Part shown: piece after piece, positions 55,934 to 64,000 of the stretch
How positions within the stretch are numbered: position 1 is the stretch's first letter
Layout of the letters: every line of letters begins with the position of its first letter
Source of the DNA: Halanaerobiales bacterium
GTDB lineage: Bacteria; Bacillota; Halanaerobiia; Halanaerobiales; M55B127
Direction of reading: 5' to 3'
DNA length: 64,000 nt
Assembly (NCBI GenBank): GCA_046482435.1
Contig: JAWOEZ010000083.1
Location: forward strand, 7,176 to 71,175
Notes under the pieces: generated by a model
What the model saw: only the letters and a program-made list of their open reading frames with translations
What the model was told of the DNA's origin: nothing
The model's database searches: none
Position numbers and translations under genes: made by a program

Positions 55934-57193
55934 TTACTCAAAATCTTTTAATTTATCAAAATCCAGGGTTCTAAAATAATCTTCGACAGTTTCAGGTCTT
56001 CTGATTTCAACAACTTGACCGTTTTCTCTTAAAAGAAGTTCCCCACCTCTTAATTTACCATTATAATTAAAGCCCATTGCATGTCCGTGGGCTCCGGTGT
56101 CGTGGATGACTAATGTATCCCCAATATCAATCTTCGGTAAGTCCCTGTCTACTGCAAATCTATCAATAGACTCACAAAGGGAACCTGTTACATCATAAGT
56201 TTCAGTCTTTGGCTTATCTTCTTTTCCTAAAACTGTAATATGATGATAGGCATCATACATTCCCGGCCTCATTAAATCATTCATATTGCCATCTAACCCT
56301 ACATGTTTTTTATATATATCCTTTTTATGAATCACCTCTGAAACTAAATAGCCATAAGGCCCAGTAATCATTCTACCACATTCCATATAAATAGCCATCG
56401 GATCGAGATTGTTTTCTTTAATGATTTCATTATATTTGTTTTTGATTCCATCACCTACTAATTCTAAATCTATTGCTTCTTCTTCCGGCCTATATGGAAC
56501 ACCAATTCCGCCTCCAATATTTAAAAATTCTAGACTAATATCTAATCTTTCTTTAACTTCAACAGCCAGATTAAACATCATTTCAGCGGTATCTATAAAA
56601 TACTGCGGGTCTAGTTGGTTAGAAGCAATAAAAGTATGCAGCCCGAAACGTTCCACTCCTCTATCACGGACTTCTTCTAAAGCTGTAAAAATTTGTTCTC
56701 TAGTCAGACCGTATTTAACTTCAGCCGGATTGCCCATGATAAAGCCGCCAGCTCTTTGATTACCTGGATTATATCTAAAAGAAATCAGATTTGGAATACC
56801 ACCATGCTCAGCCAAAAATGGGATATGGGAGATATCATCTAAATTAATTATTGCATCTAAATCTCTTGCCTTTTCATATTCTTCGGCCGGAGTATTATTT
56901 GAAGTAAACATTATTTCTTCCCCGGTGATCCCTACTTCTTCTGCTAAAATCAACTCGGTTAAAGAACTACAATCTGCTCCAAACCCTATATCTTTTAATA
57001 TTTTTAATATAAAAGGATTGGGGGTTGCTTTAACTGCAAAATATTCTTTAAACCCGTCGTTCCAATTAAAAGCCCTTAAAAATCTTTTGGCATTTTCCTT
57101 GATAGCTTTTTCATCATATAGATGAAAAGGAGTTGGATATTCACTTTTTATTTTTTCTAACTTTTCTTTACTAAAAGGAAGTCCTTTTTCCAT
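55934..57193 (-). CDS. lysA: diaminopimelate decarboxylase family (group IV PLP decarboxylase)
   Basis: PLP-lysine motif FAVKATPNP, GGGIGVPY and CESID. Substrate is assigned by family and by the adjacent aspartokinase only. Confidence 0.7.
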   Translation of the reverse strand: MEKGLPFSKEKLEKIKSEYPTPFHLYDEKAIKENAKRFLRAFNWNDGFKEYFAVKATPNPFILKILKDIGFGADCSSLTELILAEEVGITGEEIMFTSNNTPAEEYEKARDLDAIINLDDISHIPFLAEHGGIPNLISFRYNPGNQRAGGFIMGNPAEVKYGLTREQIFTALEEVRDRGVERFGLHTFIASNQLDPQYFIDTAEMMFNLAVEVKERLDISLEFLNIGGGIGVPYRPEEEAIDLELVGDGIKNKYNEIIKENNLDPMAIYMECGRMITGPYGYLVSEVIHKKDIYKKHVGLDGNMNDLMRPGMYDAYHHITVLGKEDKPKTETYDVTGSLCESIDRFAVDRDLPKIDIGDTLVIHDTGAHGHAMGFNYNGKLRGGELLLRENGQVVEIRRPETVEDYFRTLDFDKLKDFE

Positions 57194-57219
57194 TATTATA
57201 TTTACACCACCATATATTT

Positions 57220-58605
57220 TTAATCAAGCATTAAATTGTTATTCAATAAAACAACTGATTTTTTATAATTATCTCTATCCACTACAAATTGGATATTAAC
57301 CTGGCTTAAAGAAATCGATACACAGTTAATATTAATTTTATTTTCCCCTAATACCTTAGATGCTCTTGCAAGAATATTTGGCTTACTTATATTTGAACCG
57401 ATTAGACATACCATAGCTATTTCTTTAATTTTAATACTTTTATATTTAGATCTAAGTTCTTCGATTAAACTTTCACTTAAATCTTTTTCCCAAATAACCT
57501 GAGAAATACTATTAGCATTAGTAGCCTTCATTACATAACTAATATTATACTTCTTTAAAATTCTCATAATCTCATAGTCAAAGCCAACTTCGCCTACCAT
57601 TGAAGTATCATGAACTTCAATTACTACTAAATCTTTAGAACCCGCAATAATTTCTATTTTCGAATCTTCAACTACATAATCCTTTGTTATTATGGTACCC
57701 GGATGATCAGGCTCAAATGTATTCTTTACTACTAGTTTTATACCACCCATCTCAAGGGGTTTTGAAGCCTTCGGGTGAATAGCTTCCATTCCTATGTCAG
57801 CCAGCTGATCTGCCACATCATAGTTGGTTCTTCCCACTGGAACCGCCTTTTTTTCACCAACGATTTCAGGGTCTGCTGATGAAAGATGGTGTTCCTTATG
57901 GATAAAAGCCTGATCTGCCTGCAAGTAAGTTGCAATTTTAGAAAAAGTAATCTCAGAATAGCCCCTACCAAATTTGGTTACCAGACCACCTTTATCTTTA
58001 GTATACCCCGGAGCAATTATTATACTCTTAGAAAGATCTAGGTCTTGAAAAGATCTTTTAATTCTTTCCTCCATTGAAAGCTGTTTTCTATCATAAAAAC
58101 CGGTTAAATCAATAAACTCAGCATTTATTCCCAGATTAGCTAAAATATTAAATGAATTATAGGCAGCATGAGCTTCACCTAAGGAAGCTAATATCTCGCG
58201 AGCTGCTGAATAAATATTTTCTTCTTTAATATATCCAGAAGACAGTATTTCTTCCATACTATCTAAATAATTTTTAGTATGTTCTATTCTTTTTTTGATA
58301 AACCGATCCGCCTTTTTATTATCCAGGCCTATTTTAGTCAGCGATTTATTTATATCCGTTAGGTCATCAGTAAGTTCATCAAGCTTTCTTTTATATATAT
58401 CATCATTATTAATAAAACTCTTATAAATGCCGGGGTTTGAATTCTTTTTGTCTTCTAAAAGCAAATTAGTAACTCCAGCATAAGCTGAGATCACAAAGAC
58501 CCGGTTATAACTAAAACGATCATCTCCCGGTTTACCTATTATATTTTTCAATACGACTTGAAACTCCGACATGGAAGTTCCACCGATCTTTTCGACAGTT
58601 AACAA
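57220..58605 (-). CDS. lysC: aspartate kinase (LysC-III-like architecture, two ACT domains)
   Basis: VEKIGGTSM nucleotide-binding N-terminus, a helical insertion and tandem ACT domains. TTG start with a GGGAG RBS. Some core motifs diverge (GRGYSE, IHKEHHL). Confidence 0.7.
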   Translation of the reverse strand: MLTVEKIGGTSMSEFQVVLKNIIGKPGDDRFSYNRVFVISAYAGVTNLLLEDKKNSNPGIYKSFINNDDIYKRKLDELTDDLTDINKSLTKIGLDNKKADRFIKKRIEHTKNYLDSMEEILSSGYIKEENIYSAAREILASLGEAHAAYNSFNILANLGINAEFIDLTGFYDRKQLSMEERIKRSFQDLDLSKSIIIAPGYTKDKGGLVTKFGRGYSEITFSKIATYLQADQAFIHKEHHLSSADPEIVGEKKAVPVGRTNYDVADQLADIGMEAIHPKASKPLEMGGIKLVVKNTFEPDHPGTIITKDYVVEDSKIEIIAGSKDLVVIEVHDTSMVGEVGFDYEIMRILKKYNISYVMKATNANSISQVIWEKDLSESLIEELRSKYKSIKIKEIAMVCLIGSNISKPNILARASKVLGENKININCVSISLSQVNIQFVVDRDNYKKSVVLLNNNLMLD

Positions 58606-58644: not shown

Positions 58645-58673
58645 ATTATAATACTCACTAGTCCATATTTCAA
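58645..58673 (-). promoter_or_regulatory. promoter upstream of lysC-lysA
   Basis: Minus strand reads TTGAAA, 17 nt, TATAAT. Confidence 0.5.
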
Positions 58674-58697: not shown

Positions 58698-59579
58698 TTA
58701 TAAGTTGAATTCCTCTCCTTCCTTAAGAAATTTAATGTTTTTTCTCTTTACCTCATTTTTAAAATTTGGCCTTAAAATGGAATTTGTATGGTTAAAATGT
58801 GTAAAATATACCTCTGAATCATTAAGTTCTAAGATACCATTATCAATTTTTTTGAGAGTTTCTTTAATAGGAGGATGAGGGACTTCTTCAATCTTTCTAC
58901 CCCTAAACTTCATAAGCTCTTCTTTAGAATAAAAGGTCCCATCTAGGATAAGAAAATCTGTCTTTTGGCTTATCTCATTGAATTTATCGTCAAACCCTTC
59001 CCAACTATCTATATCAGGTAAATAAAAGGCAGATTTACTGCTGCCCTTTATTATAAAAGCTGAGGTGTCACTGAATTCTTGACGGTGTGGAACCTCAACT
59101 GGAATCACTTTCAAGTCAGTTGAAAGGGAAATTTCTTTTTCAAATTCAAAAGTATTTATTTTTATATTTTCATTGTCAACTAACTGTTTCCAGGGTTGAT
59201 TTGAAGTAAGAAAATTTTTCAAACTCTTACTTGTCTGAACCGATAATTTGTCACTATTTATTGCTTCCTTACCAAAATACATAAGCCCTGGATAATGACC
59301 CATATGAGCATGCGTTATTAAAACCCCTTCTAAATGGTCTTTTAAAAAATCATACTTTTTAGCGGTTTCATTTAAAATATTTAATTGCTCAGCTAAATGA
59401 GGAGTGGGATCAATGATATAACTTTTTTTATGTGTAATATCCAAAATACCTAAAGAAGCCGGCAGCCTTTTTAGTTCTTTATTATTTAAAGTTCTTTGAC
59501 AGTTCGGACAGTTACATCCCGGCTGAGGATATCCTCCATCCTGTGCTGTACCAAGCACTTTTAATAAAATGGCTCCCAT
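58698..59579 (-). CDS. PqqB-like MBL-fold metallo-hydrolase
   Basis: N-terminal GTAQDGGYPQPGCNCPNC (CxCxxC) and an MBL motif THAHMGH. The ATG overlaps the transporter TAA (TAATG). Confidence 0.7.
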   Translation of the reverse strand: MGAILLKVLGTAQDGGYPQPGCNCPNCQRTLNNKELKRLPASLGILDITHKKSYIIDPTPHLAEQLNILNETAKKYDFLKDHLEGVLITHAHMGHYPGLMYFGKEAINSDKLSVQTSKSLKNFLTSNQPWKQLVDNENIKINTFEFEKEISLSTDLKVIPVEVPHRQEFSDTSAFIIKGSSKSAFYLPDIDSWEGFDDKFNEISQKTDFLILDGTFYSKEELMKFRGRKIEEVPHPPIKETLKKIDNGILELNDSEVYFTHFNHTNSILRPNFKNEVKRKNIKFLKEGEEFNL

Positions 59580-60988
59580 TATGCTTCTCTCCTTACTTTT
59601 TCTTTCTTCTGTGGTTCTATCCTTGCAATAGAAATCCCGGTCAACCCATATAATAGATTAATCAAGATAACTAACATCGGAAAAAATAAGAATGGTATAA
59701 ATTCAACGGGCTGTGCTCCTAACATATCTGCTGCAAAGATAGCAGGTACACTCCATGGAACCAATGTAATTCCCACTGTTCCCCCTGCTTCTACATTTCT
59801 ACTCAAATTCTTTGTATGTAGTCCCATCTCTTTAAAGCTATTTGAAAACATCTTGGCCGGTATAATAATAGCTAAAACCTGGGCACCAGTACTTAAACCT
59901 ATTAAAAAAGCTGTTATCAGAGATGTTACCAACAATTTTTTACTACTGTTAATCCAGGTCATCATTTTTTCTAAAATAACATCCAAGATACCAACTTTTT
60001 GCATTATACCTCCTAAGGCAGCTGCAGTAATTAAAAGAATTATGGTATCTCCCATAGAAGTAACCCCACCTTTGGAAAGTAAACTATTTATCATACTTAT
60101 TTCACTATCAATGCTGTAACCAGAAGTAAATGAACTTAAGACTTCAACCAGACTGGCACTCTGAAATACCATACCAAAAATCCCACCTAAAAATGACATG
60201 GATAATAAAGTTGGGATAGCCGGTGTCTTGCGGACCGCCAGCACAATAGTAATTAACGGTAATATAAATAACAGTGGTGTTATATTAAACGAACTGTTTA
60301 ACCCCTGCATTAAAATATTGATTTGTTCTGTACCTTCAAATCCTCCTCCAACTTGAGACTGTCCAACTACCCAGTAGATAATTAAGGACAGTCCAAAAGC
60401 AGGAATTGTATCCCAGAGCATATGACCTACGTGCTCAAAAAGCGAACAGTCTGCCATTGCTGCTGCAATATTTGTAGTATCTGATAAAGGTGATAACTTA
60501 TCCCCAAAAAATGCACCTGAAATTATTGCTGCTGCAGTCAAGGGGGTTGCAAAACCCATTGCATTACCCACAGCAATTAAAGCTATCCCTACAGTGGCAA
60601 TCGAAGTAAAAGAAGTTCCCAGAGTTGTCGAAACAATTGCAGTTATCAGAGCTGCTAAAGGTAAAAATAAAGAAGGACTTAAAAACTTTAAACCATAAAA
60701 TATCATGGCCGGAATCGTACCACTTAAAATCCAGGTACCTATAATAGAACCTACTATTAACAAGATAAAAATTGCGGGTAATGCTTTTGCAACCCCTTCT
60801 TTTAGACCTTGCTGTAATTCATCCCAGCTGTAATCAAACAAAAATCCTATGATTCCAGTTGCTACCACACCACTTAATAAAGGAACTATCATTCCGACTT
60901 TCCAGTAAAAAACTGAAAAAGCCCCCATCAAAAGAAGAACTAGAATTGGTAAAATTGCTATTATAAAACTCAGTTTCCTTTTTCTCAT
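59579..60988 (-). CDS. NhaC-family Na+/H+ antiporter-type carrier (candidate amino-acid transporter)
   Basis: 469 aa, about 12 TM helices, NhaC-family-like sequence. Lies downstream of a T-box leader. Confidence 0.75.
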   Translation of the reverse strand: MRKRKLSFIIAILPILVLLLMGAFSVFYWKVGMIVPLLSGVVATGIIGFLFDYSWDELQQGLKEGVAKALPAIFILLIVGSIIGTWILSGTIPAMIFYGLKFLSPSLFLPLAALITAIVSTTLGTSFTSIATVGIALIAVGNAMGFATPLTAAAIISGAFFGDKLSPLSDTTNIAAAMADCSLFEHVGHMLWDTIPAFGLSLIIYWVVGQSQVGGGFEGTEQINILMQGLNSSFNITPLLFILPLITIVLAVRKTPAIPTLLSMSFLGGIFGMVFQSASLVEVLSSFTSGYSIDSEISMINSLLSKGGVTSMGDTIILLITAAALGGIMQKVGILDVILEKMMTWINSSKKLLVTSLITAFLIGLSTGAQVLAIIIPAKMFSNSFKEMGLHTKNLSRNVEAGGTVGITLVPWSVPAIFAADMLGAQPVEFIPFLFFPMLVILINLLYGLTGISIARIEPQKKEKVRREA

Positions 60989-61045
60989 TTACTACTACCT
61001 CCTCAATTATTGATAATTCACAAATGATAAAATGTGTTATAAAAT

Positions 61046-61273
61046 AAAAAAAGCCGTCCCTTATTTCAGGACGACGTATGCGCGGTACCACCTGAATTAA
61101 TTCTGATTATACAAAAAATAATCAGAACAACTCTATTGAAAGCTAACACTCTCTCACCAGATAACGTTGGAAAACGGCCTAGCCTACTATTAATTCAACC
61201 GGCAACTCAAGGGTGTATTTCAGCAATAAGCTTACTTATTCCCACTCATAGTTTTTATCATTTGAAATTATTG
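61046..61273 (-). promoter_or_regulatory. T-box leader, Tyr-type (UAC), with very short Stem I
   Basis: Minus strand carries the T-box sequence AGGUGGUACCGCG (61093-81) and a terminator GUCGUCC / GGGACGGC plus U7 (61076-61046). It also has Stem III UUCUGAUUAU/AUAAUCAGAA and a specifier loop AAUAAGUA / GAAA-UAC-A (UAC at 61217-61215). Confidence 0.8.
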
Positions 61274-61279
61274 TTAATT

Positions 61280-61308
61280 ATTATATATTAACGAAAACAA
61301 GTTGTCAA
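61280..61308 (-). promoter_or_regulatory. consensus promoter of the Tyr T-box operon
   Basis: Minus strand reads TTGACA, 17 nt, TATAAT. Confidence 0.7.
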
Positions 61309-61331
61309 GACCTTGTCTAATAAAAAAATTC

Positions 61332-61360
61332 TTGACATAGATAGTTCTCAGTGTTAAAAT
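61332..61360 (+). promoter_or_regulatory. consensus promoter of the Trp T-box operon
   Basis: TTGACA, 17 nt (ending in TGT), TAAAAT. Confidence 0.7.
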
Positions 61361-61366
61361 TATATT

Positions 61367-61668
61367 CAAATAAATAATATTTATAAATTCTATGAGCAAG
61401 ACGAGTAGCTTTATATCTTCATTTACAGAGAACCGATACCGCTGAGAATTCGGGAATGAAATATTAAAGTGAATGGCCTTGTTAGAAGTAGGGGGAAATA
61501 TCTTTAAAAGGATAGATTATCCTGTACCGGAATTTATCCGTTAAAGTAAATAGAATTCACCTAATATAAGGTGGTTTCTTTTAAGTGAGTTAATCAATGA
61601 TTAACTAATAAGGGTGGCAACACGGAATTAATAGTCTTTCGTCCCTAACCAGGGTGAAAGGTTTTTTT
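61367..61668 (+). promoter_or_regulatory. T-box leader, Trp-type (UGG)
   Basis: Canonical Stem I (GA motif, AGUA, AGAGA bulge, distal loop), specifier GAA-UGG-C (61471-61477) and F-box CCGUUA (61548-61553). T-box sequence GGGUGGCAACACGG (61612-61625) and terminator 61636-61660 plus U7. Confidence 0.85.
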
Positions 61669-61739
61669 AATTTTGTGTTTGCCGCCCTATTTATATTAAT
61701 TAATGGTTTTTTAAAAAATTAAAAGGGGGAATGATTTAA

Positions 61740-62468
61740 TTGTATGACCTAAAAATAGTTGTTGAAACCATTGAAGGTTTTTGTGATTTACCCATGAAAA
61801 AAGGGGATTACTTTACTGTTAAGGGAGGTAAAATTGAAATACCCGAAAACCAACATATTTGTCTTTGGGCTTTACAGAGTTTGATGCCTATAATTCCTGC
61901 TAAACAAAGAGAAGTAAACGAAGAAAATGACTGGATTCCACATACAAAACGGTTAACTTGTCCGGATCCAAAGGGGAGAGTCATATTTAGAATCGATAGA
62001 ATTGACCCTGCTACCGGAGAAATCATCAACTCAGAACAAAAAATACCTTCAAGAATTGATGTGGATTCTGACAAATGTACTGGTTGTCGGGCCTGTGAAA
62101 CTGTCTGTGCATTTATACATACTGGAAGTTTTAATGGGAAAAGAGCAAGAATCAAGATTGAAAAAATTGAAAAAAAAGGAAAGGATATTCCTTATGTCTG
62201 CAGGCAGTGTGGAAACGCCCCCTGTGTTAAAGTCTGCCCTGTAGATGCTCTTAGTAGGGACAAAGAAACAAATGCAATCCTGGTCAATCAAGATAAATGC
62301 ATAGGTTGTAAAAAATGCGAAAAGGCCTGTCCTTTTGATGCAATTACTTTTAACAAAAATAAGATTCCTTTAATCTGTGATTTATGCGGAGGAGAAGTTG
62401 AATGTGTGAAACGCTGTCCTACTGATGCCCTGAAATTTGATAGTTCACCAGGAGGTGATAGAAAATGA
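61740..62468 (+). CDS. TIGR04076-like domain fused to a poly-[4Fe-4S] ferredoxin domain
   Basis: TTG start 9 nt after GGGGGA. The N-terminal ~100 aa (CLWALQSLMPI...LTCPDPKGRVIFRIDRI) resemble TIGR04076. The C-terminus has four Cys clusters (CTGCRACETVC, CRQCGNAPCVKVCP, CIGCKKCEKACP, CDLCGGEVECVKRCP). Confidence 0.7.
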   Translation: MYDLKIVVETIEGFCDLPMKKGDYFTVKGGKIEIPENQHICLWALQSLMPIIPAKQREVNEENDWIPHTKRLTCPDPKGRVIFRIDRIDPATGEIINSEQKIPSRIDVDSDKCTGCRACETVCAFIHTGSFNGKRARIKIEKIEKKGKDIPYVCRQCGNAPCVKVCPVDALSRDKETNAILVNQDKCIGCKKCEKACPFDAITFNKNKIPLICDLCGGEVECVKRCPTDALKFDSSPGGDRK

Positions 62469-64000
62469 ATTTTGGATACTGCGGCCAAGCTCTGCGGATT
62501 AATTTAACAAAAAATTCTATAAAAACTGAAAAACTTGACCCAGATTTTCTAAAAAACTATCTAGGGGGAAGAGGATTAAATATTCGTAGACTATATGATG
62601 AAGTACCTCCCAGTGTAAAACCATTAAGTGAAGAAAATAAATTATATATCGGAGTTGGACCACTTACAGGAACTTTATTCCCGGGAGCAGCAAGAGTAAA
62701 TTTTACTGCCAAATCTCCCCAGACTAATATATTAGGTGATTCAAATACCGGTGGTTTCTTCGGACCCGAATTAAAATTTGCAGGTTTTGATCAGGTAGTA
62801 GTTGAGGGAAAAGCTAAGGAATTATCATATATCTTTATAAAAAACGGAGAAGCCGAGATAAAATCTGCAAAACATCTAGAAGGTTTAGATGTCTTTAAAA
62901 CTCAGGAAAAAATCGTAGAAGAATTAAACGATAAACGAGTTCAGGTGGCTAGTGTTGGACCGGCTGCTGAAAATGGAGTCAAATATTCCGGGATTTTTTG
63001 TAATCAAGTCCGGGCTGCTGCTAGAACAGGAATGGGATTGGTATTAACCTCTAAAAATATAAAGGCAATCGCCGTAAGAGGAACTGAAGATCTTAAAGCT
63101 TCTAATCCAAATAAATTTAAAGCACTAATCGATAAGATGGATCAGGAAATTCGAAATCATTCAGAATATGATATTAGAGTTCGATTAGGAACCACTAAGC
63201 TAGTATCATCTTTAAATGAATTAGGTTGTTTAGCAACCAGGCATTTTCAAACCGGTTATTTCGAAGATGCTGACAAAGTTAGCGGAGAATACCTGGCAAA
63301 AAATTATAAACAAAAAGAAAAGGGCTGTTTTAGCTGTACAATCCCCTGCAGCAGATATTTTGAAATTGATAAGGGTGAACATAAGGGATTAAAAAGTGAA
63401 GGGCCTGAGTTTGAAGGCCTGGCTGGTTTTTCCTCAAGAGTGGGTGTTTCAAATATTGAAGATGCCCTTAAAGCCATTGACCTCTGTAATCGTTATGGGA
63501 TGGATGTAATAACAACCTCAGAGTGTATATCTTTCACGATGGAATTATATGAAAAAGATATATTAACAAGTAATCAAATAGATGGGTTAGAACCCACCTG
63601 GGGGAATAGTAAGGCTATCTTTACATTAATCGAAAAAATTAAAAAACGTGAAGGTTTTGGGGATCTTTTAGCAGATGGTGTAGTGGCCGCTGCTGAAAAA
63701 ATCGGTAAAAACAGTAAAAAGTTAGCAATGCATGTTAAAGGCTTAGAGATTTTTCAGGCAGACCCCAGAGGTATAAAAGGTTATGGGCTGGGAGTCGCTG
63801 TTGCGACCCGCGGTGGTGACCACTTAAGAAGTGAACCCTGGTTTGAATTCATGGAAGATCCTGAGGAAGGTAAAAGGAGATTTGGCCATCCAGAGTCAGC
63901 ATTTAGACTGGAGTATAAAGGAAAAGGGAAAGTTGTTAAATTTTATGAAGAAAGATGTGTGTTGGCTGACTGCCTGGAAGCCTGTAAAAACACTATCGTA
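62465..64000 (+). CDS. aldehyde:ferredoxin oxidoreductase family enzyme (tungsto/molybdopterin), 3' end beyond the window
   Basis: ATG at 62465 overlaps the upstream TGA (ATGA). The frame is open for 512 codons to the window end. AOR-family N-terminal and catalytic-domain sequence (GGRGLN, RTGMG, GCFSCTIPC, ATRGGDHLRSEP). Confidence 0.85.
   Translation, partial: MNFGYCGQALRINLTKNSIKTEKLDPDFLKNYLGGRGLNIRRLYDEVPPSVKPLSEENKLYIGVGPLTGTLFPGAARVNFTAKSPQTNILGDSNTGGFFGPELKFAGFDQVVVEGKAKELSYIFIKNGEAEIKSAKHLEGLDVFKTQEKIVEELNDKRVQVASVGPAAENGVKYSGIFCNQVRAAARTGMGLVLTSKNIKAIAVRGTEDLKASNPNKFKALIDKMDQEIRNHSEYDIRVRLGTTKLVSSLNELGCLATRHFQTGYFEDADKVSGEYLAKNYKQKEKGCFSCTIPCSRYFEIDKGEHKGLKSEGPEFEGLAGFSSRVGVSNIEDALKAIDLCNRYGMDVITTSECISFTMELYEKDILTSNQIDGLEPTWGNSKAIFTLIEKIKKREGFGDLLADGVVAAAEKIGKNSKKLAMHVKGLEIFQADPRGIKGYGLGVAVATRGGDHLRSEPWFEFMEDPEEGKRRFGHPESAFRLEYKGKGKVVKFYEERCVLADCLEACKNTIV

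What the first reader, a model, noticed from the sequence alone, without database searches (positions are those of the whole stretch)
58698..61308. Tyr-type T-box with an ultrashort Stem I driving an NhaC-family carrier translationally coupled to a PqqB-like metallo-hydrolase
A perfect TTGACA-17-TATAAT promoter on the minus strand (61308-61280) sits back-to-back with the Trp T-box promoter. The leader has the T-box sequence AGGUGGUACCGCG, Stem III, and a terminator GUCGUCC/GGGACGGC plus U7. Its Stem I appears reduced to a K-turn (AACU-AUGAGU-GGG / CCC-UUG-AGUU) and a specifier loop (5' AAUAAGUA, 3' GAAA-UAC-A) capped by a 3-bp hairpin, with no distal platform. An S-turn-containing Stem II follows (UUGAA-UUAAUAGUA-GGCUAG...UUAGCU-UUCAA). 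This resembles the short-Stem-I T-boxes I recall from actinobacterial ileS leaders and would be unusual in a Firmicute. UAC followed by A, together with a UGGU bulge (A73), fits tRNA-Tyr. I recall NhaC-family carriers being predicted as T-box-controlled amino-acid transporters, which needs verification. The unexpected part is the PqqB-like MBL protein (CxCxxC plus HxHxxH-type motif), whose ATG overlaps the transporter stop (TAATG). The characterised PqqB acts on a tyrosine-derived ring, and no other PQQ biosynthesis gene is present in this window.
Basis: partly seen in the sequence, partly recalled or inferred. Interest (0 to 1): 0.6.

Follow-up and report, generated by a model that had tools for sequence, protein, structure and literature searches.

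The report
Tyrosine T-box lacking its tRNA-elbow platform
A tRNA-sensing RNA switch for tyrosine has lost the part thought essential for switches that act during transcription, yet it is conserved in a clade of anaerobic Firmicutes, where it controls a transporter and an enzyme of unknown function.

Summary
On the minus strand, a perfect sigma-70 promoter (61308-61280) is followed by a T-box leader (61258-61064). The leader scores 85.3 bits against Rfam RF00230, below the gathering score of 93.

- **Stem I:** 55 model positions, the AG bulge and distal loop that dock the tRNA elbow, are replaced by a 5-nt loop.
- **Other elements:** all are present. These are the K-turn, the S-turn specifier loop with UAC (Tyr) followed by A, Stem II, the IIA/B pseudoknot, Stem III, the UGGU bulge, and an 8-bp terminator with U7.
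- **Conservation:** eight distinct relatives share the short form (MBL proteins 58-77% identical). They show compensatory changes, and the leader is more conserved than the coding DNA. More distant relatives keep a full Stem I, so the short form is derived and under selection.
- **Already known:** Tyr T-box control of NhaC-family carriers was reported by Wels in 2008.
- **NhaC-MBL pair:** it is linked in every Bacillota locus examined, always with a UAC specifier wherever a T-box is present.
- **The MBL protein:** PqqB is its nearest solved relative, but it is not PqqB. Its function is unknown.

Verdict: a new variant of a known kind, of moderate to good interest.

The parts
61280..61308 (-). 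Sigma-70 promoter TTGACA-17-TATAAT of the Tyr T-box operon
   Evidence: 12 of 12 consensus matches. The -35 and -10 boxes are conserved in all short-form relatives.
61064..61258 (-). T-box leader as matched by the covariance model (antiterminator conformation)
   Evidence: RF00230, 85.3 bits, E 3.3e-19, model positions 1-219. On the 10-sequence alignment, 96% of cells are paired, 13 pairs change on both sides, and 0 of 500 shuffles reach the observed values.
61204..61253 (-). Truncated Stem I: base helix AACU/AGUU, K-turn (UGA...UGA), GGG/CCC, specifier loop (AAUAAGUA / GAAAUACA), 3-bp cap AGC/GCU with loop UUAUU. There is no AG bulge or distal loop.
   Evidence: 55 model positions replaced by 5 nt. 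A gap of about 48 columns against L099, L001 and L002. Coordinates.
61215..61217 (-). Specifier codon UAC (Tyr), followed by the conserved purine A at 61214
   Evidence: It lies in the codon columns of the model (compared with UGG in the Trp T-box). It is invariant in all relatives.
61178..61202 (-). Stem II with S-turn loop (GAA...AGUA)
   Evidence: 100% paired, and 4 of 6 pairs change on both sides.
61157..61176 (-). Stem IIA hairpin (CGU/ACG), F-box ACGUUA, and IIB pseudoknot (CCA with UGG)
   Evidence: IIB is 100% paired, with CCA/UGG changing to CCG/CGG.
61138..61153 (-). Lineage-specific extra hairpin GAGAG/CUUUC with conserved loop UGUUAG, lying between IIA/B and Stem III
   Evidence: 100% paired, and 2 pairs change on both sides. 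It appears as an insertion relative to the Rfam model.
61101..61127 (-). Stem III, flanked by AGAG (5') and AA (3') purines
   Evidence: A stable hairpin with a different sequence forms in each of 10 leaders.
61066..61095 (-). Antiterminator: helix A1 UCAGG/CCUGA, T-box bulge UGGUACC (UGGU pairs with ACCA-3', discriminator A73), helix A2 GCG/CGU
   Evidence: Canonical structure -4.7 kcal/mol.
61046..61075 (-). Intrinsic terminator GUCGUCCU/GGGACGGC plus U7, overlapping the 3' strand of the antiterminator
   Evidence: 93.8% paired, with U-A changing to C-G. -11.3 kcal/mol.
60998..61004 (-). Shine-Dalgarno GAGGAGG of the carrier gene, 41 nt beyond the U-tract and outside the switch
59579..60988 (-). 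NhaC-family carrier, 469 aa; predicted tyrosine or tyrosine-related carrier
   Evidence: PF03553, 189 bits. TIGR00931, 410 bits (cutoff 370). ArcD model, 343 bits (below its cutoff). Orthologues at 47-62% identity are preceded by Tyr T-boxes.
58698..59579 (-). MBL-fold metalloprotein of the PqqB/PhnP branch, 293 aa. Its start codon overlaps the carrier stop codon (TAATG).
   Evidence: PF12706. TIGR02108, 105.9 bits (cutoff 245). PDB sequence hit to PqqB, E 5e-25. Fold TM 0.81-0.83 to PqqB. Directly downstream of NhaC in all Bacillota loci.
58645..58673 (-). Secondary promoter TTGAAA-17-TATAAT ahead of aspartate kinase. It marks the likely 3' limit of the conserved T-box unit, although no terminator separates the two.
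   Evidence: Conserved in L088, L090, L091, L092 and L100.

Best explanation
This is a working tRNA-Tyr-sensing T-box that acts by transcription attenuation and has lost the distal half of Stem I. That half is the interdigitated T-loop platform (IDTM), which stacks on the tRNA elbow.

**Proposed mechanism**
1. Transcription starts about 7 nt after the TATAAT box.
2. The nascent leader forms a short Stem I, with a K-turn and a specifier loop presenting UAC-A.
3. Stem II with its S-turn and the IIA/B pseudoknot dock onto Stem I and clamp the anticodon (GUA/QUA) of tRNA-Tyr, as in actinobacterial ileS T-boxes.
4. If the tRNA is uncharged, its ACCA-3' end pairs with UGGU in the bulge. This stabilises the weak antiterminator (-4.7 kcal/mol) over the terminator (-11.3 kcal/mol), and RNA polymerase reads into the operon.
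5. The operon encodes an NhaC-family carrier and a translationally coupled MBL-fold metalloenzyme. Together they most likely raise the tyrosine supply. The carrier would import tyrosine or a tyrosine derivative. The enzyme would be a metal-dependent hydrolase rather than an oxygenase, and would process the imported or a related compound.

**Shown here:** the anatomy, the specifier, the conservation and covariation, and the gene linkage.
**Inferred:** tRNA binding, compensation by Stem II, the transported substrate, and the enzyme reaction.
For: **The leader is a T-box.** Full-length match to RF00230 with all elements except distal Stem I.

**The short form is conserved.** It is shared by 8 distinct leaders: the window, L088, L091, L092, L100, L102, L103 and L106. 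They score 75-85.5 bits. Their MBL proteins are only 58-77% identical to the window's.

**Selection has continued.**
- The six short forms aligned alone are 98.6% paired, with 4 pairs changed on both sides.
- Stem III is compensated in every sequence.
- The terminator covaries.
- Over 28 pairs, leader nucleotide identity is 86%. The spacer from terminator to ATG is 75%, nhaC 77.5% and mbl 73%.

**The short form is derived.** L099, L001 and L002 have the same architecture plus a long Stem I. L099 and L001 score 137-141 bits.

**Control is transcriptional.** There is a terminator with U7, and the Shine-Dalgarno sequence lies 41 nt downstream, outside any switch helix.

**The signal is tyrosine.**
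- UAC is invariant while its flanks vary.
- UGGU fits discriminator A73, an established feature of bacterial tRNA-Tyr.
- In relatives the pair sits in a T-box-tyrS-NhaC-MBL arrangement (L013), is followed by a second Tyr T-box driving DAHP synthase (L001), or is followed by chorismate synthase (L102).
- Wels 2008 (PMC2494555) reports Tyr T-boxes on NhaC carriers.

**The enzyme looks like a hydrolase.** The family keeps His-x-His...His, PDID, His and His, the ligands of a dinuclear MBL hydrolase site. In PqqB these positions are D-S-Q-I-D-H and G-L-G. After PqqB, the next structural neighbours are PhnP-family phosphodiesterases. Relatives carrying the pair are labelled Halanaerobiales, and the window encodes an aldehyde:ferredoxin oxidoreductase. 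Both argue against an O2-dependent reaction.
Against: - No experiment. tRNA binding and antitermination without the elbow platform have never been shown for a transcriptional T-box. A review states that the platform is essential in that class (PMC7583486, section 6.2).
- The leader scores below the Rfam gathering threshold.
- The eight short forms are fairly close to one another (86% mean identity), so covariation counts are small. The shuffle control can be exceeded through relatedness alone.
- In three or four relatives, the basal G.U of helix A2, which is the steric sensor, is G-C.
- The enzyme's substrate is unknown. The catalytic Asp of HxHxDH is Gly in the whole family, which is atypical for MBL hydrolases.
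- Outside Bacillota the family has no conserved neighbour.
- In L097 and L107 the same gene pair lacks a T-box.
Confidence: 0.72

Rival explanations
1. The short leader is a decaying T-box. After an internal deletion it no longer binds tRNA and acts as a constitutive, leaky terminator, or is controlled by something else.
For: - The elbow platform is reported to be essential for transcriptional T-boxes (PMC7583486).
- The score is below the Rfam gathering threshold.
- Related loci have lost T-box control altogether. L107 retains only a terminator-like hairpin, and L097 has hutP instead.
- L002 shows degenerate distal motifs.
Against: - Eight diverged lineages keep the specifier, both S-turns, the pseudoknot, the T-box bulge and the antiterminator intact, with compensatory substitutions.
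- The leader is more conserved than the adjacent coding DNA and spacer: 86% against 73-77%.
- A dead switch would not preserve the UAC and UGGUACC single-stranded positions.
Confidence: 0.15
2. The specifier is read in another frame, AUA (Ile) or ACA (Thr), so the operon responds to a different amino acid.
For: - GAAAUACA contains AUA and ACA.
- The discriminator A73 implied by UGGU also fits tRNA-Ile.
- Short Stem I T-boxes known so far are ileS leaders.
Against: - The covariance model places UAC in the codon columns, directly before the conserved purine.
- L103, L001a and L002 read UUACA, and Bacillales read GUACA or UUACA, so AUA is not conserved.
- L088 reads UACC, so ACA is not conserved.
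- The genes linked in relatives are tyrS, DAHP synthase and chorismate synthase.
Confidence: 0.03
3. The carrier is a genuine Na+/H+ antiporter and the MBL protein is a true PqqB-type oxygenase acting on a tyrosine-derived ring. The operon would not be a tyrosine supply module.
For: - TIGR00931, the NhaC equivalog model, is passed.
- PqqB is the closest solved structure over its full length.
- A review notes that riboswitch-linked NhaC proteins might be real antiporters (PMC11477304).
Against: - TIGR02108 scores 105.9 bits against a cutoff of 245.
- The metal-ligand residues differ from PqqB.
- No radical-SAM, PqqC or PqqD gene appears in any of the neighbourhoods examined.
- The hosts are anaerobes.
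- The NhaC family includes amino-acid antiporters; the ArcD model scores 343 bits.
- The T-box logic implies a benefit under tyrosine starvation.
Confidence: 0.1

Closest known systems
Class I transcriptional T-box (B. subtilis tyrS type; Rfam RF00230)
   Same: K-turn, specifier in an internal loop with an S-turn, UAC specifier, Stem II with S-turn, IIA/B pseudoknot, Stem III, UGGN bulge, antiterminator/terminator switch, Firmicute host. Full-length orthologous leaders exist in L099 and L001.
   Different: The whole distal Stem I is missing: the AG bulge and distal loop that form the interdigitated T-loop platform for the tRNA elbow. It is replaced by a 3-bp cap and a 5-nt loop. The score falls below the Rfam gathering threshold.
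Class IV / Class III translational ileS T-boxes of Actinobacteria (A. odontolyticus, M. tuberculosis, N. farcinica; Sherwood 2015 as cited in PMC7583486 and PMC10482949)
   Same: Stem I has no elbow platform. Stem II with S-turn and the pseudoknot are present and presumably required. As in Class IV, the specifier sits in a side loop below a short helix.
   Different: It uses an intrinsic terminator rather than Shine-Dalgarno sequestration. It is Tyr-specific rather than Ile-specific. It controls a transporter operon rather than ileS. It occurs in Halanaerobiales-like Bacillota. It arose independently by deletion from a Class I ancestor.
Tyr T-box-regulated NhaC-family transporters of Firmicutes (e.g. 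B. anthracis BA4353; Wels et al. 2008, PMC2494555)
   Same: The same transporter family under a Tyr-specific T-box. Bacillales orthologues are 47-51% identical.
   Different: The conserved downstream MBL partner is not mentioned in that paper: the words 'lactamase' and 'PqqB' occur 0 times. The Bacillales leaders have a long Stem I and lack Stem II.
PqqB (TIGR02108; PDB 4Z67, 6E13, 3JXP)
   Same: Full-length homology, including the N-terminal Cys-x-Cys-x-x-Cys zinc motif and the MBL fold (TM about 0.82). PqqB binds a tyrosine-derived ring.
   Different: About 20% identity. The score is far below the family cutoff. The motif is HAHxGH where PqqB has DSQIDH, and PDID where PqqB has PGLG. There are no pqq genes nearby, and the hosts are anaerobes.

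Membership tests
T-box leader (RF00230) | T-box sequence with UGGN bulge inside an antiterminator that competes with a terminator | tested here: met
   AGGUGGUACCGCG is aligned to the model. Helices A1 and A2 are 92-100% paired. The terminator overlaps the 3' strand.
T-box leader (RF00230) | Specifier loop with S-turn (AGUA/GAA), codon and 3' purine, above a K-turn | tested here: met
   AAUAAGUA ... GAAAUACA, with UGA/UGA K-turn residues aligned to the model.
T-box leader (RF00230) | Score at or above the curated gathering threshold (93 bits) | tested here: not met
   85.3 bits. All eight short forms score 75-85.5 bits. The shortfall is explained by the missing 55 positions.
T-box leader (RF00230) | Binds uncharged cognate tRNA and promotes readthrough | not testable with these tools
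   Needs in vitro transcription or reporter assays.
Class I (long Stem I, transcriptional) | Distal Stem I AG bulge and distal loop forming the tRNA-elbow platform | tested here: not met
   55 model positions are replaced by 5 nt. There is a gap of about 48 columns against L099, L001 and L002.
Class I (long Stem I, transcriptional) | Stem II with S-turn plus IIA/B pseudoknot | tested here: met
   Both are 100% paired, with changes on both sides.
Class III/IV (actinobacterial translational ileS T-box) | Short or intermediate Stem I without the elbow platform, with Stem II present | tested here: met
Class III/IV (actinobacterial translational ileS T-box) | Regulation by Shine-Dalgarno sequestration | tested here: not met
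   There is a terminator with U7, and the Shine-Dalgarno sequence lies 41 nt downstream of it, outside the switch.
Class III/IV (actinobacterial translational ileS T-box) | Ile specifier upstream of ileS in Actinobacteria | tested here: not met
   The specifier is UAC, upstream of an NhaC carrier. Relatives are labelled Bacillota, Halanaerobiales or Halothermotrichaceae.
PqqB (TIGR02108) | Score above the equivalog cutoff (245 bits) | tested here: not met
   105.9 bits.
PqqB (TIGR02108) | Located in a pqqABCDE cluster | tested here: not met
   Neighbours here and in 12 related contigs are NhaC, aspartate kinase, a decarboxylase, hemerythrin, LysM proteins and similar. The whole window was not screened for pqq genes.
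PqqB (TIGR02108) | PqqB-type active-site residues | tested here: not met
   HAHxGH against DSQIDH, and PDID against PGLG, in the profile-to-PDB alignment.
PqqB (TIGR02108) | MBL fold with N-terminal Cys3 zinc motif | tested here: met
   AlphaFold2 model with pLDDT 91 and TM 0.81-0.83 to PqqB structures. C22, C24 and C27 are invariant or nearly so.
NhaC family (PF03553 / TIGR00931) | Profile match above the cutoff | tested here: met
   189 bits (PF03553) and 410 bits against a cutoff of 370 (TIGR00931).
NhaC family (PF03553 / TIGR00931) | Na+/H+ antiport, or tyrosine transport, activity | not testable with these tools
   Only the regulatory association with tyrosine is shown.

The most novel reading that the evidence does not exclude
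A natural clade of transcription-terminating T-boxes works without the tRNA-elbow platform and relies on the Stem II/pseudoknot anticodon clamp. The lineage-specific hairpin with its conserved UGUUAG loop may also contribute. This would overturn the view that the platform is essential for co-transcriptional tRNA sensing. The switch controls a conserved two-gene module, an NhaC carrier plus a new PqqB/PhnP-related metalloenzyme family, that would constitute an undescribed tyrosine-acquisition route in Bacillota.
Probability: 0.4. Interest if true: 0.72.

Novelty: new variant of a known kind. Interest (0 to 1): 0.58.

Why it matters
**For the T-box field.** Current accounts tie a short, platform-less Stem I to translational control. 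The reasoning is that only a switch without a time limit can afford slow tRNA capture. Transcriptional T-boxes are said to require the platform (PMC7583486, section 6.2; PMC11297988; PMC7778990). Here, a conserved terminator-type T-box has deleted exactly that platform, and full-length orthologues are available as built-in controls. That makes a ready natural experiment on the kinetics of co-transcriptional tRNA recognition, and on how much Stem II alone can do.

**For annotation.** All eight short forms score below the Rfam gathering threshold, so such leaders are invisible to standard pipelines.

**For the proteins.** The NhaC-MBL pair is conserved under tyrosine control across two orders of Bacillota. 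This marks a widespread MBL family, routinely mis-named PqqB, as a candidate tyrosine-related enzyme. It also gives a concrete starting point for finding its substrate.

Tried and rejected
The outer helix UUGAA/UUCAA is 69% paired with no covariation. The inner helix GGCUAG/UUAGCU is 86.7% paired. However, it competes with two helices that are 100% paired. Rejected.
2. **Function of the MBL from gene neighbourhoods outside Bacillota.** ORFs within 4 kb in 74 loci were clustered. Nothing recurs beyond lineage-level synteny, such as folE-metG-MBL-tsaC in Aminicenantes. No inference was drawn. The idea of a queuosine/tRNA link was considered and dropped for lack of support.
3. **Aspartate kinase and the lysA-like decarboxylase as part of the T-box unit.** They follow the MBL gene only in the close clade, and they have their own conserved promoter. 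They are treated as neighbours, although readthrough is not excluded.
4. **Metagenome scan with the single protein.** It returned only 7 loci, and only one of them (59% identity) was more than about 40% identical. It was of little use.
5. **Literature.** No paper combines PqqB, T-box and tyrosine. Vitreschak 2008 could not be read. No description was found of a terminator-type T-box with a truncated Stem I. [quoted passage not shown]
6. **tRNA-Tyr gene.** No tRNA gene lies in the window, so the cognate tRNA could not be inspected.
Full report
**1. The observation**

The sequence on the minus strand is as described.
- A 12-of-12 sigma-70 promoter lies at 61308-61280. It faces away from the plus-strand promoter at 61332-61360, which serves a Trp T-box at 61383-61649.
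- The default Rfam scan reports only the Trp element. A permissive scan of 60950-61400 finds a full-model match to RF00230 on the minus strand at 61258-61064. It scores 85.3 bits against a gathering score of 93, with E 3.3e-19.
- In that alignment, 55 consensus positions are replaced by five nucleotides. These positions are the upper Stem I, with its AG bulge and distal loop.
- Everything else aligns:
  - the K-turn residues;
  - the specifier loop (AAUAAGUA on the 5' side, GAAAUACA on the 3' side);
  - Stem II with GAA...AGUA;
  - the IIA hairpin with the ACGUUA F-box;
  - Stem III;
  - AGGUGGUACCGCG;
  - the 3' strand of the antiterminator.
- The terminator at 61075-61053 has 8 pairs and is followed by U7.
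- The carrier ORF (60988-59579) and the MBL ORF (59579-58698) share one base, in TAATG.

**2. The codon**

- The same model columns that hold UGG in the neighbouring Trp T-box hold UAC here, followed by A.
- UAC is invariant across twelve Halanaerobiales-type leaders and the Bacillales leaders. The base before it is A, U or G, and the base after it is A or C.
- This rules out the AUA and ACA frames.
- UGGU in the bulge implies discriminator A73, which fits bacterial tRNA-Tyr (established knowledge).

**3. The short Stem I is a conserved, derived state**

I retrieved relatives in two ways.
- The first was a genome scan with an alignment of MBL homologues.
- The second was exact-protein look-ups of closer metagenomic homologues.

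*Short forms.*
- Seven further distinct leaders share the truncation: L088, L091, L092, L100, L102, L103 and L106.
- In these, 51-55 model positions are replaced by 1-5 nt, and they score 75-85.5 bits.
- Their MBL proteins are only 58-77% identical to the window protein.

*Long forms.*
- More distant relatives have the same leader architecture, including an orthologous extra hairpin, but with a full Stem I.
- L099 and L001 score 137-141 bits.
- L002 also has a long Stem I, but its distal motifs look degenerate.

*The deletion.* A MAFFT alignment of six short and four long leaders shows one clean gap of about 48 columns. The helix directly above the specifier loop (AGC/GCU) is kept and simply capped.

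**4. Structure and selection**

*The canonical T-box structure on the ten-sequence alignment.*

| Measure | Result |
|---|---|
| Cells paired | 96.0% |
| Cells paired when the 3' partner is slid by 1-3 columns | 31-49% |
| Pairs changed on both sides | 13 of 35 |
| Shuffles reaching the observed values | 0 of 500 |

Per helix:
- Stem II (CCGGUU/GGCU-A-GG) is 100% paired.
- The IIB pseudoknot is 100% paired, with CCA/UGG changing to CCG/CGG.
- The extra hairpin is 100% paired.

*The six short forms alone.*
- They are 98.6% paired, with four pairs changed on both sides.
- Stem III has a different sequence but a stable hairpin in every leader.
- The terminator shows U-A changing to C-G.

*Nucleotide identity, averaged over 28 pairs of the eight short-form loci.*

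| Region | Identity |
|---|---|
| Leader | 86% |
| Spacer between terminator and start codon | 75% |
| nhaC | 77.5% |
| mbl | 73% |

*Caveat.* The sequences are related and few, so the shuffle control overstates significance. The slid-partner control and the comparison with neighbouring DNA do not depend on that assumption.

Its outer helix is 69% paired with no covariation.

**5. Mode of action**

- The antiterminator in its canonical form is worth -4.7 kcal/mol and the terminator -11.3 kcal/mol. The Shine-Dalgarno sequence lies 41 nt beyond the U-tract.
- This is therefore a transcription-attenuation switch that is off by default.
[quoted passage not shown] That is the mechanism solved for actinobacterial ileS T-boxes (PMC7583486; PMC10482949). 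This step is inferred, not shown.

**6. Comparison with what is known**

- The Zhang-lab scheme has four classes (PMC10482949):
  - Class I has a long Stem I with the platform, plus Stem II, and is transcriptional.
  - Class II is the glyQS type.
  - Class III has the specifier in an apical loop and no platform.
  - Classes III and IV are said to 'mostly regulate translation initiation'.
- The 2020 review says transcriptional T-boxes 'generally require' the platform. It contrasts its 'essentiality' there with its expendability in translational T-boxes, and explains this by the time limit on co-transcriptional binding (PMC7583486, section 6.2).
- The present leader has a Class IV-like decoding module joined to a Class I expression platform. 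It is Tyr-specific, occurs in Bacillota, and derives from a Class I ancestor by deletion.
- I found no description of such a case. However, TBDB mentions class I hits with a predicted truncated Stem I, without elaboration (PMC7778990). I therefore rate it a new variant of a known kind, not a new kind.

**7. The genes**

*The carrier.*
- It passes the NhaC equivalog model, with 410 bits against a cutoff of 370. It also resembles the ArcD arginine/ornithine antiporter model, at 343 bits, below that model's cutoff.
- Tyr T-boxes on NhaC carriers in many Firmicutes were reported in 2008 (PMC2494555). That part is known.

*The MBL protein.*
- It belongs to a very large family: 1051 hits and more than 594 genome loci across many phyla. 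Members are often auto-named PqqB.
- PqqB is the best solved relative by sequence (E 5e-25) and by fold (TM 0.81-0.83). PhnP-family phosphodiesterases come next.
- It is not PqqB:
  - TIGR02108 scores 105.9 bits against a cutoff of 245.
  - The family has invariant HAHxGH, PHR, PDID, HP and HFNHTN motifs, where PqqB has DSQIDH and PGLG.
  - No pqq genes are nearby.
  - The close relatives are labelled Halanaerobiales or Halothermotrichaceae, which are anaerobes, and the window encodes an aldehyde:ferredoxin oxidoreductase.
- A metal-dependent hydrolase is more plausible than an oxygenase. However, the Gly in place of the usual Asp is atypical, and the substrate is unknown.

**8. Linkage**

Among the 80 loci retrieved from the genome collection:
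- The NhaC homologue sits directly upstream of the MBL gene in all nine Bacillota loci that have one.
- It is never there in other phyla.

The same holds in all twelve metagenomic or MAG contigs of closer relatives.

Wherever a T-box precedes the pair, the specifier is UAC.

The surrounding genes in relatives reinforce the link to tyrosine:
- T-box-tyrS-NhaC-MBL in Brevibacillus (L013).
- A second Tyr T-box driving DAHP synthase directly after the MBL gene (L001).
- Chorismate synthase after the MBL gene (L102).

Two relatives have replaced or lost the T-box:
- L097 has hutP and a UAG-repeat leader.
- L107 has only a terminator-like hairpin.

Outside Bacillota the MBL gene has no conserved partner.

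**9. Limits of the unit**

- Aspartate kinase and a lysA-like decarboxylase follow the MBL gene only in the close clade. They lie behind a conserved promoter in a 90-nt spacer that has no terminator.
- I regard carrier plus MBL as the conserved T-box unit. Readthrough into the next genes is possible.

**10. Verdict**

- The carrier association is known.
- The elbow-less terminator-type Tyr T-box clade and the conserved MBL partner are the parts worth pursuing.
- Confidence that the switch is functional and Tyr-responsive is about 0.7.
- Confidence in any specific enzyme reaction is low.

Noticed in passing
window 61383-64000 (+); also L088, L091, L092, L093, L103: The divergent Trp (UGG) T-box, which has a full Stem I, drives a TIGR04076/4Fe-4S ferredoxin fusion (61740-62468). 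An aldehyde:ferredoxin oxidoreductase follows from 62468 onward. The arrangement is conserved in relatives, and in L091 and L093 it is followed by a second Na_H_antiporter/DcuC-like carrier. A Trp T-box on an AFOR operon is unusual.
   Followed up: partly
window 58645-58673 (-) and 55934-58605 (-): A conserved promoter lies in the 90-nt spacer after the MBL gene. It is followed by aspartate kinase (PRK09181 type) and a lysA-like decarboxylase, and ends at a terminator at 55916-55878. No terminator separates this unit from the T-box operon. The pair follows the MBL gene only in the close clade.
   Followed up: partly
L097 2522-3245 and 5604-5749 (also L098): In this relative the NhaC-MBL pair is preceded by a hutP gene, a leader rich in UAG repeats, and a terminator, instead of a T-box. 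This suggests protein-mediated antitermination. Downstream of the MBL gene lies a Trp T-box fragment, with Stem I and Stem II followed by a terminator but no T-box sequence.
   Followed up: partly
L107 2440-2600 (Halanaerobium sp. Z-7514): Here the NhaC-MBL pair has no T-box. A promoter is followed directly by the hairpin ACGUCCU/AGGACGU plus U7, which resembles the T-box terminator. UAG-rich sequence follows. This may be a remnant left after loss of the whole sensor.
   Followed up: no
L002 4925-5152: The Halanaerobium Tyr T-box keeps a long Stem I, but the AG bulge and distal loop consensus are degenerate, with many non-canonical pairs in the covariance-model alignment. This may be an independent erosion of the elbow platform in the same T-box lineage.
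   Followed up: no
L091, L100, L102, L103 (helix A2; window equivalent 61071): The basal G.U wobble of helix A2 is described as the steric sensor of the aminoacyl group. In these leaders it is G-C, and the U-to-C change is compensated in the terminator by A-to-G.
   Followed up: partly
window 61138-61153 (-): An extra hairpin lies between the IIA/B pseudoknot and Stem III. Its stem covaries, and its loop (UGUUAG) is nearly invariant in both short and long forms. The Rfam model does not include it, and its role is unknown. The Trp T-box has a different hairpin at the same place.
   Followed up: partly
L013, L019, L036, L001: Variants of the tyrosine module:
- L013 (Brevibacillus): T-box-tyrS-NhaC-MBL.
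- L019 (Ornithinibacillus): two tandem Tyr T-boxes ahead of NhaC-MBL.
- L036 (Virgibacillus): two NhaC paralogues, each with its own Tyr T-box.
- L001: a second Tyr T-box driving DAHP synthase directly after the MBL gene.
   Followed up: partly
window 58698-59579 (-), residues 90-95: In this family the MBL signature HxHxDH reads HAHxGH. The normally universal Asp is an invariant Gly in all 26 aligned members from several phyla. Some members from Bacteroidota and Acidobacteriota carry N-terminal signal or lipoprotein-like extensions.
   Followed up: partly
L003-L007 (Aminicenantes and 'Eubacteriales' MAGs): Here the MBL gene sits in a folE (GTP cyclohydrolase I) - metG - MBL - tsaC/Sua5 arrangement. 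This is lineage-level synteny only, and no functional inference was drawn.
   Followed up: no
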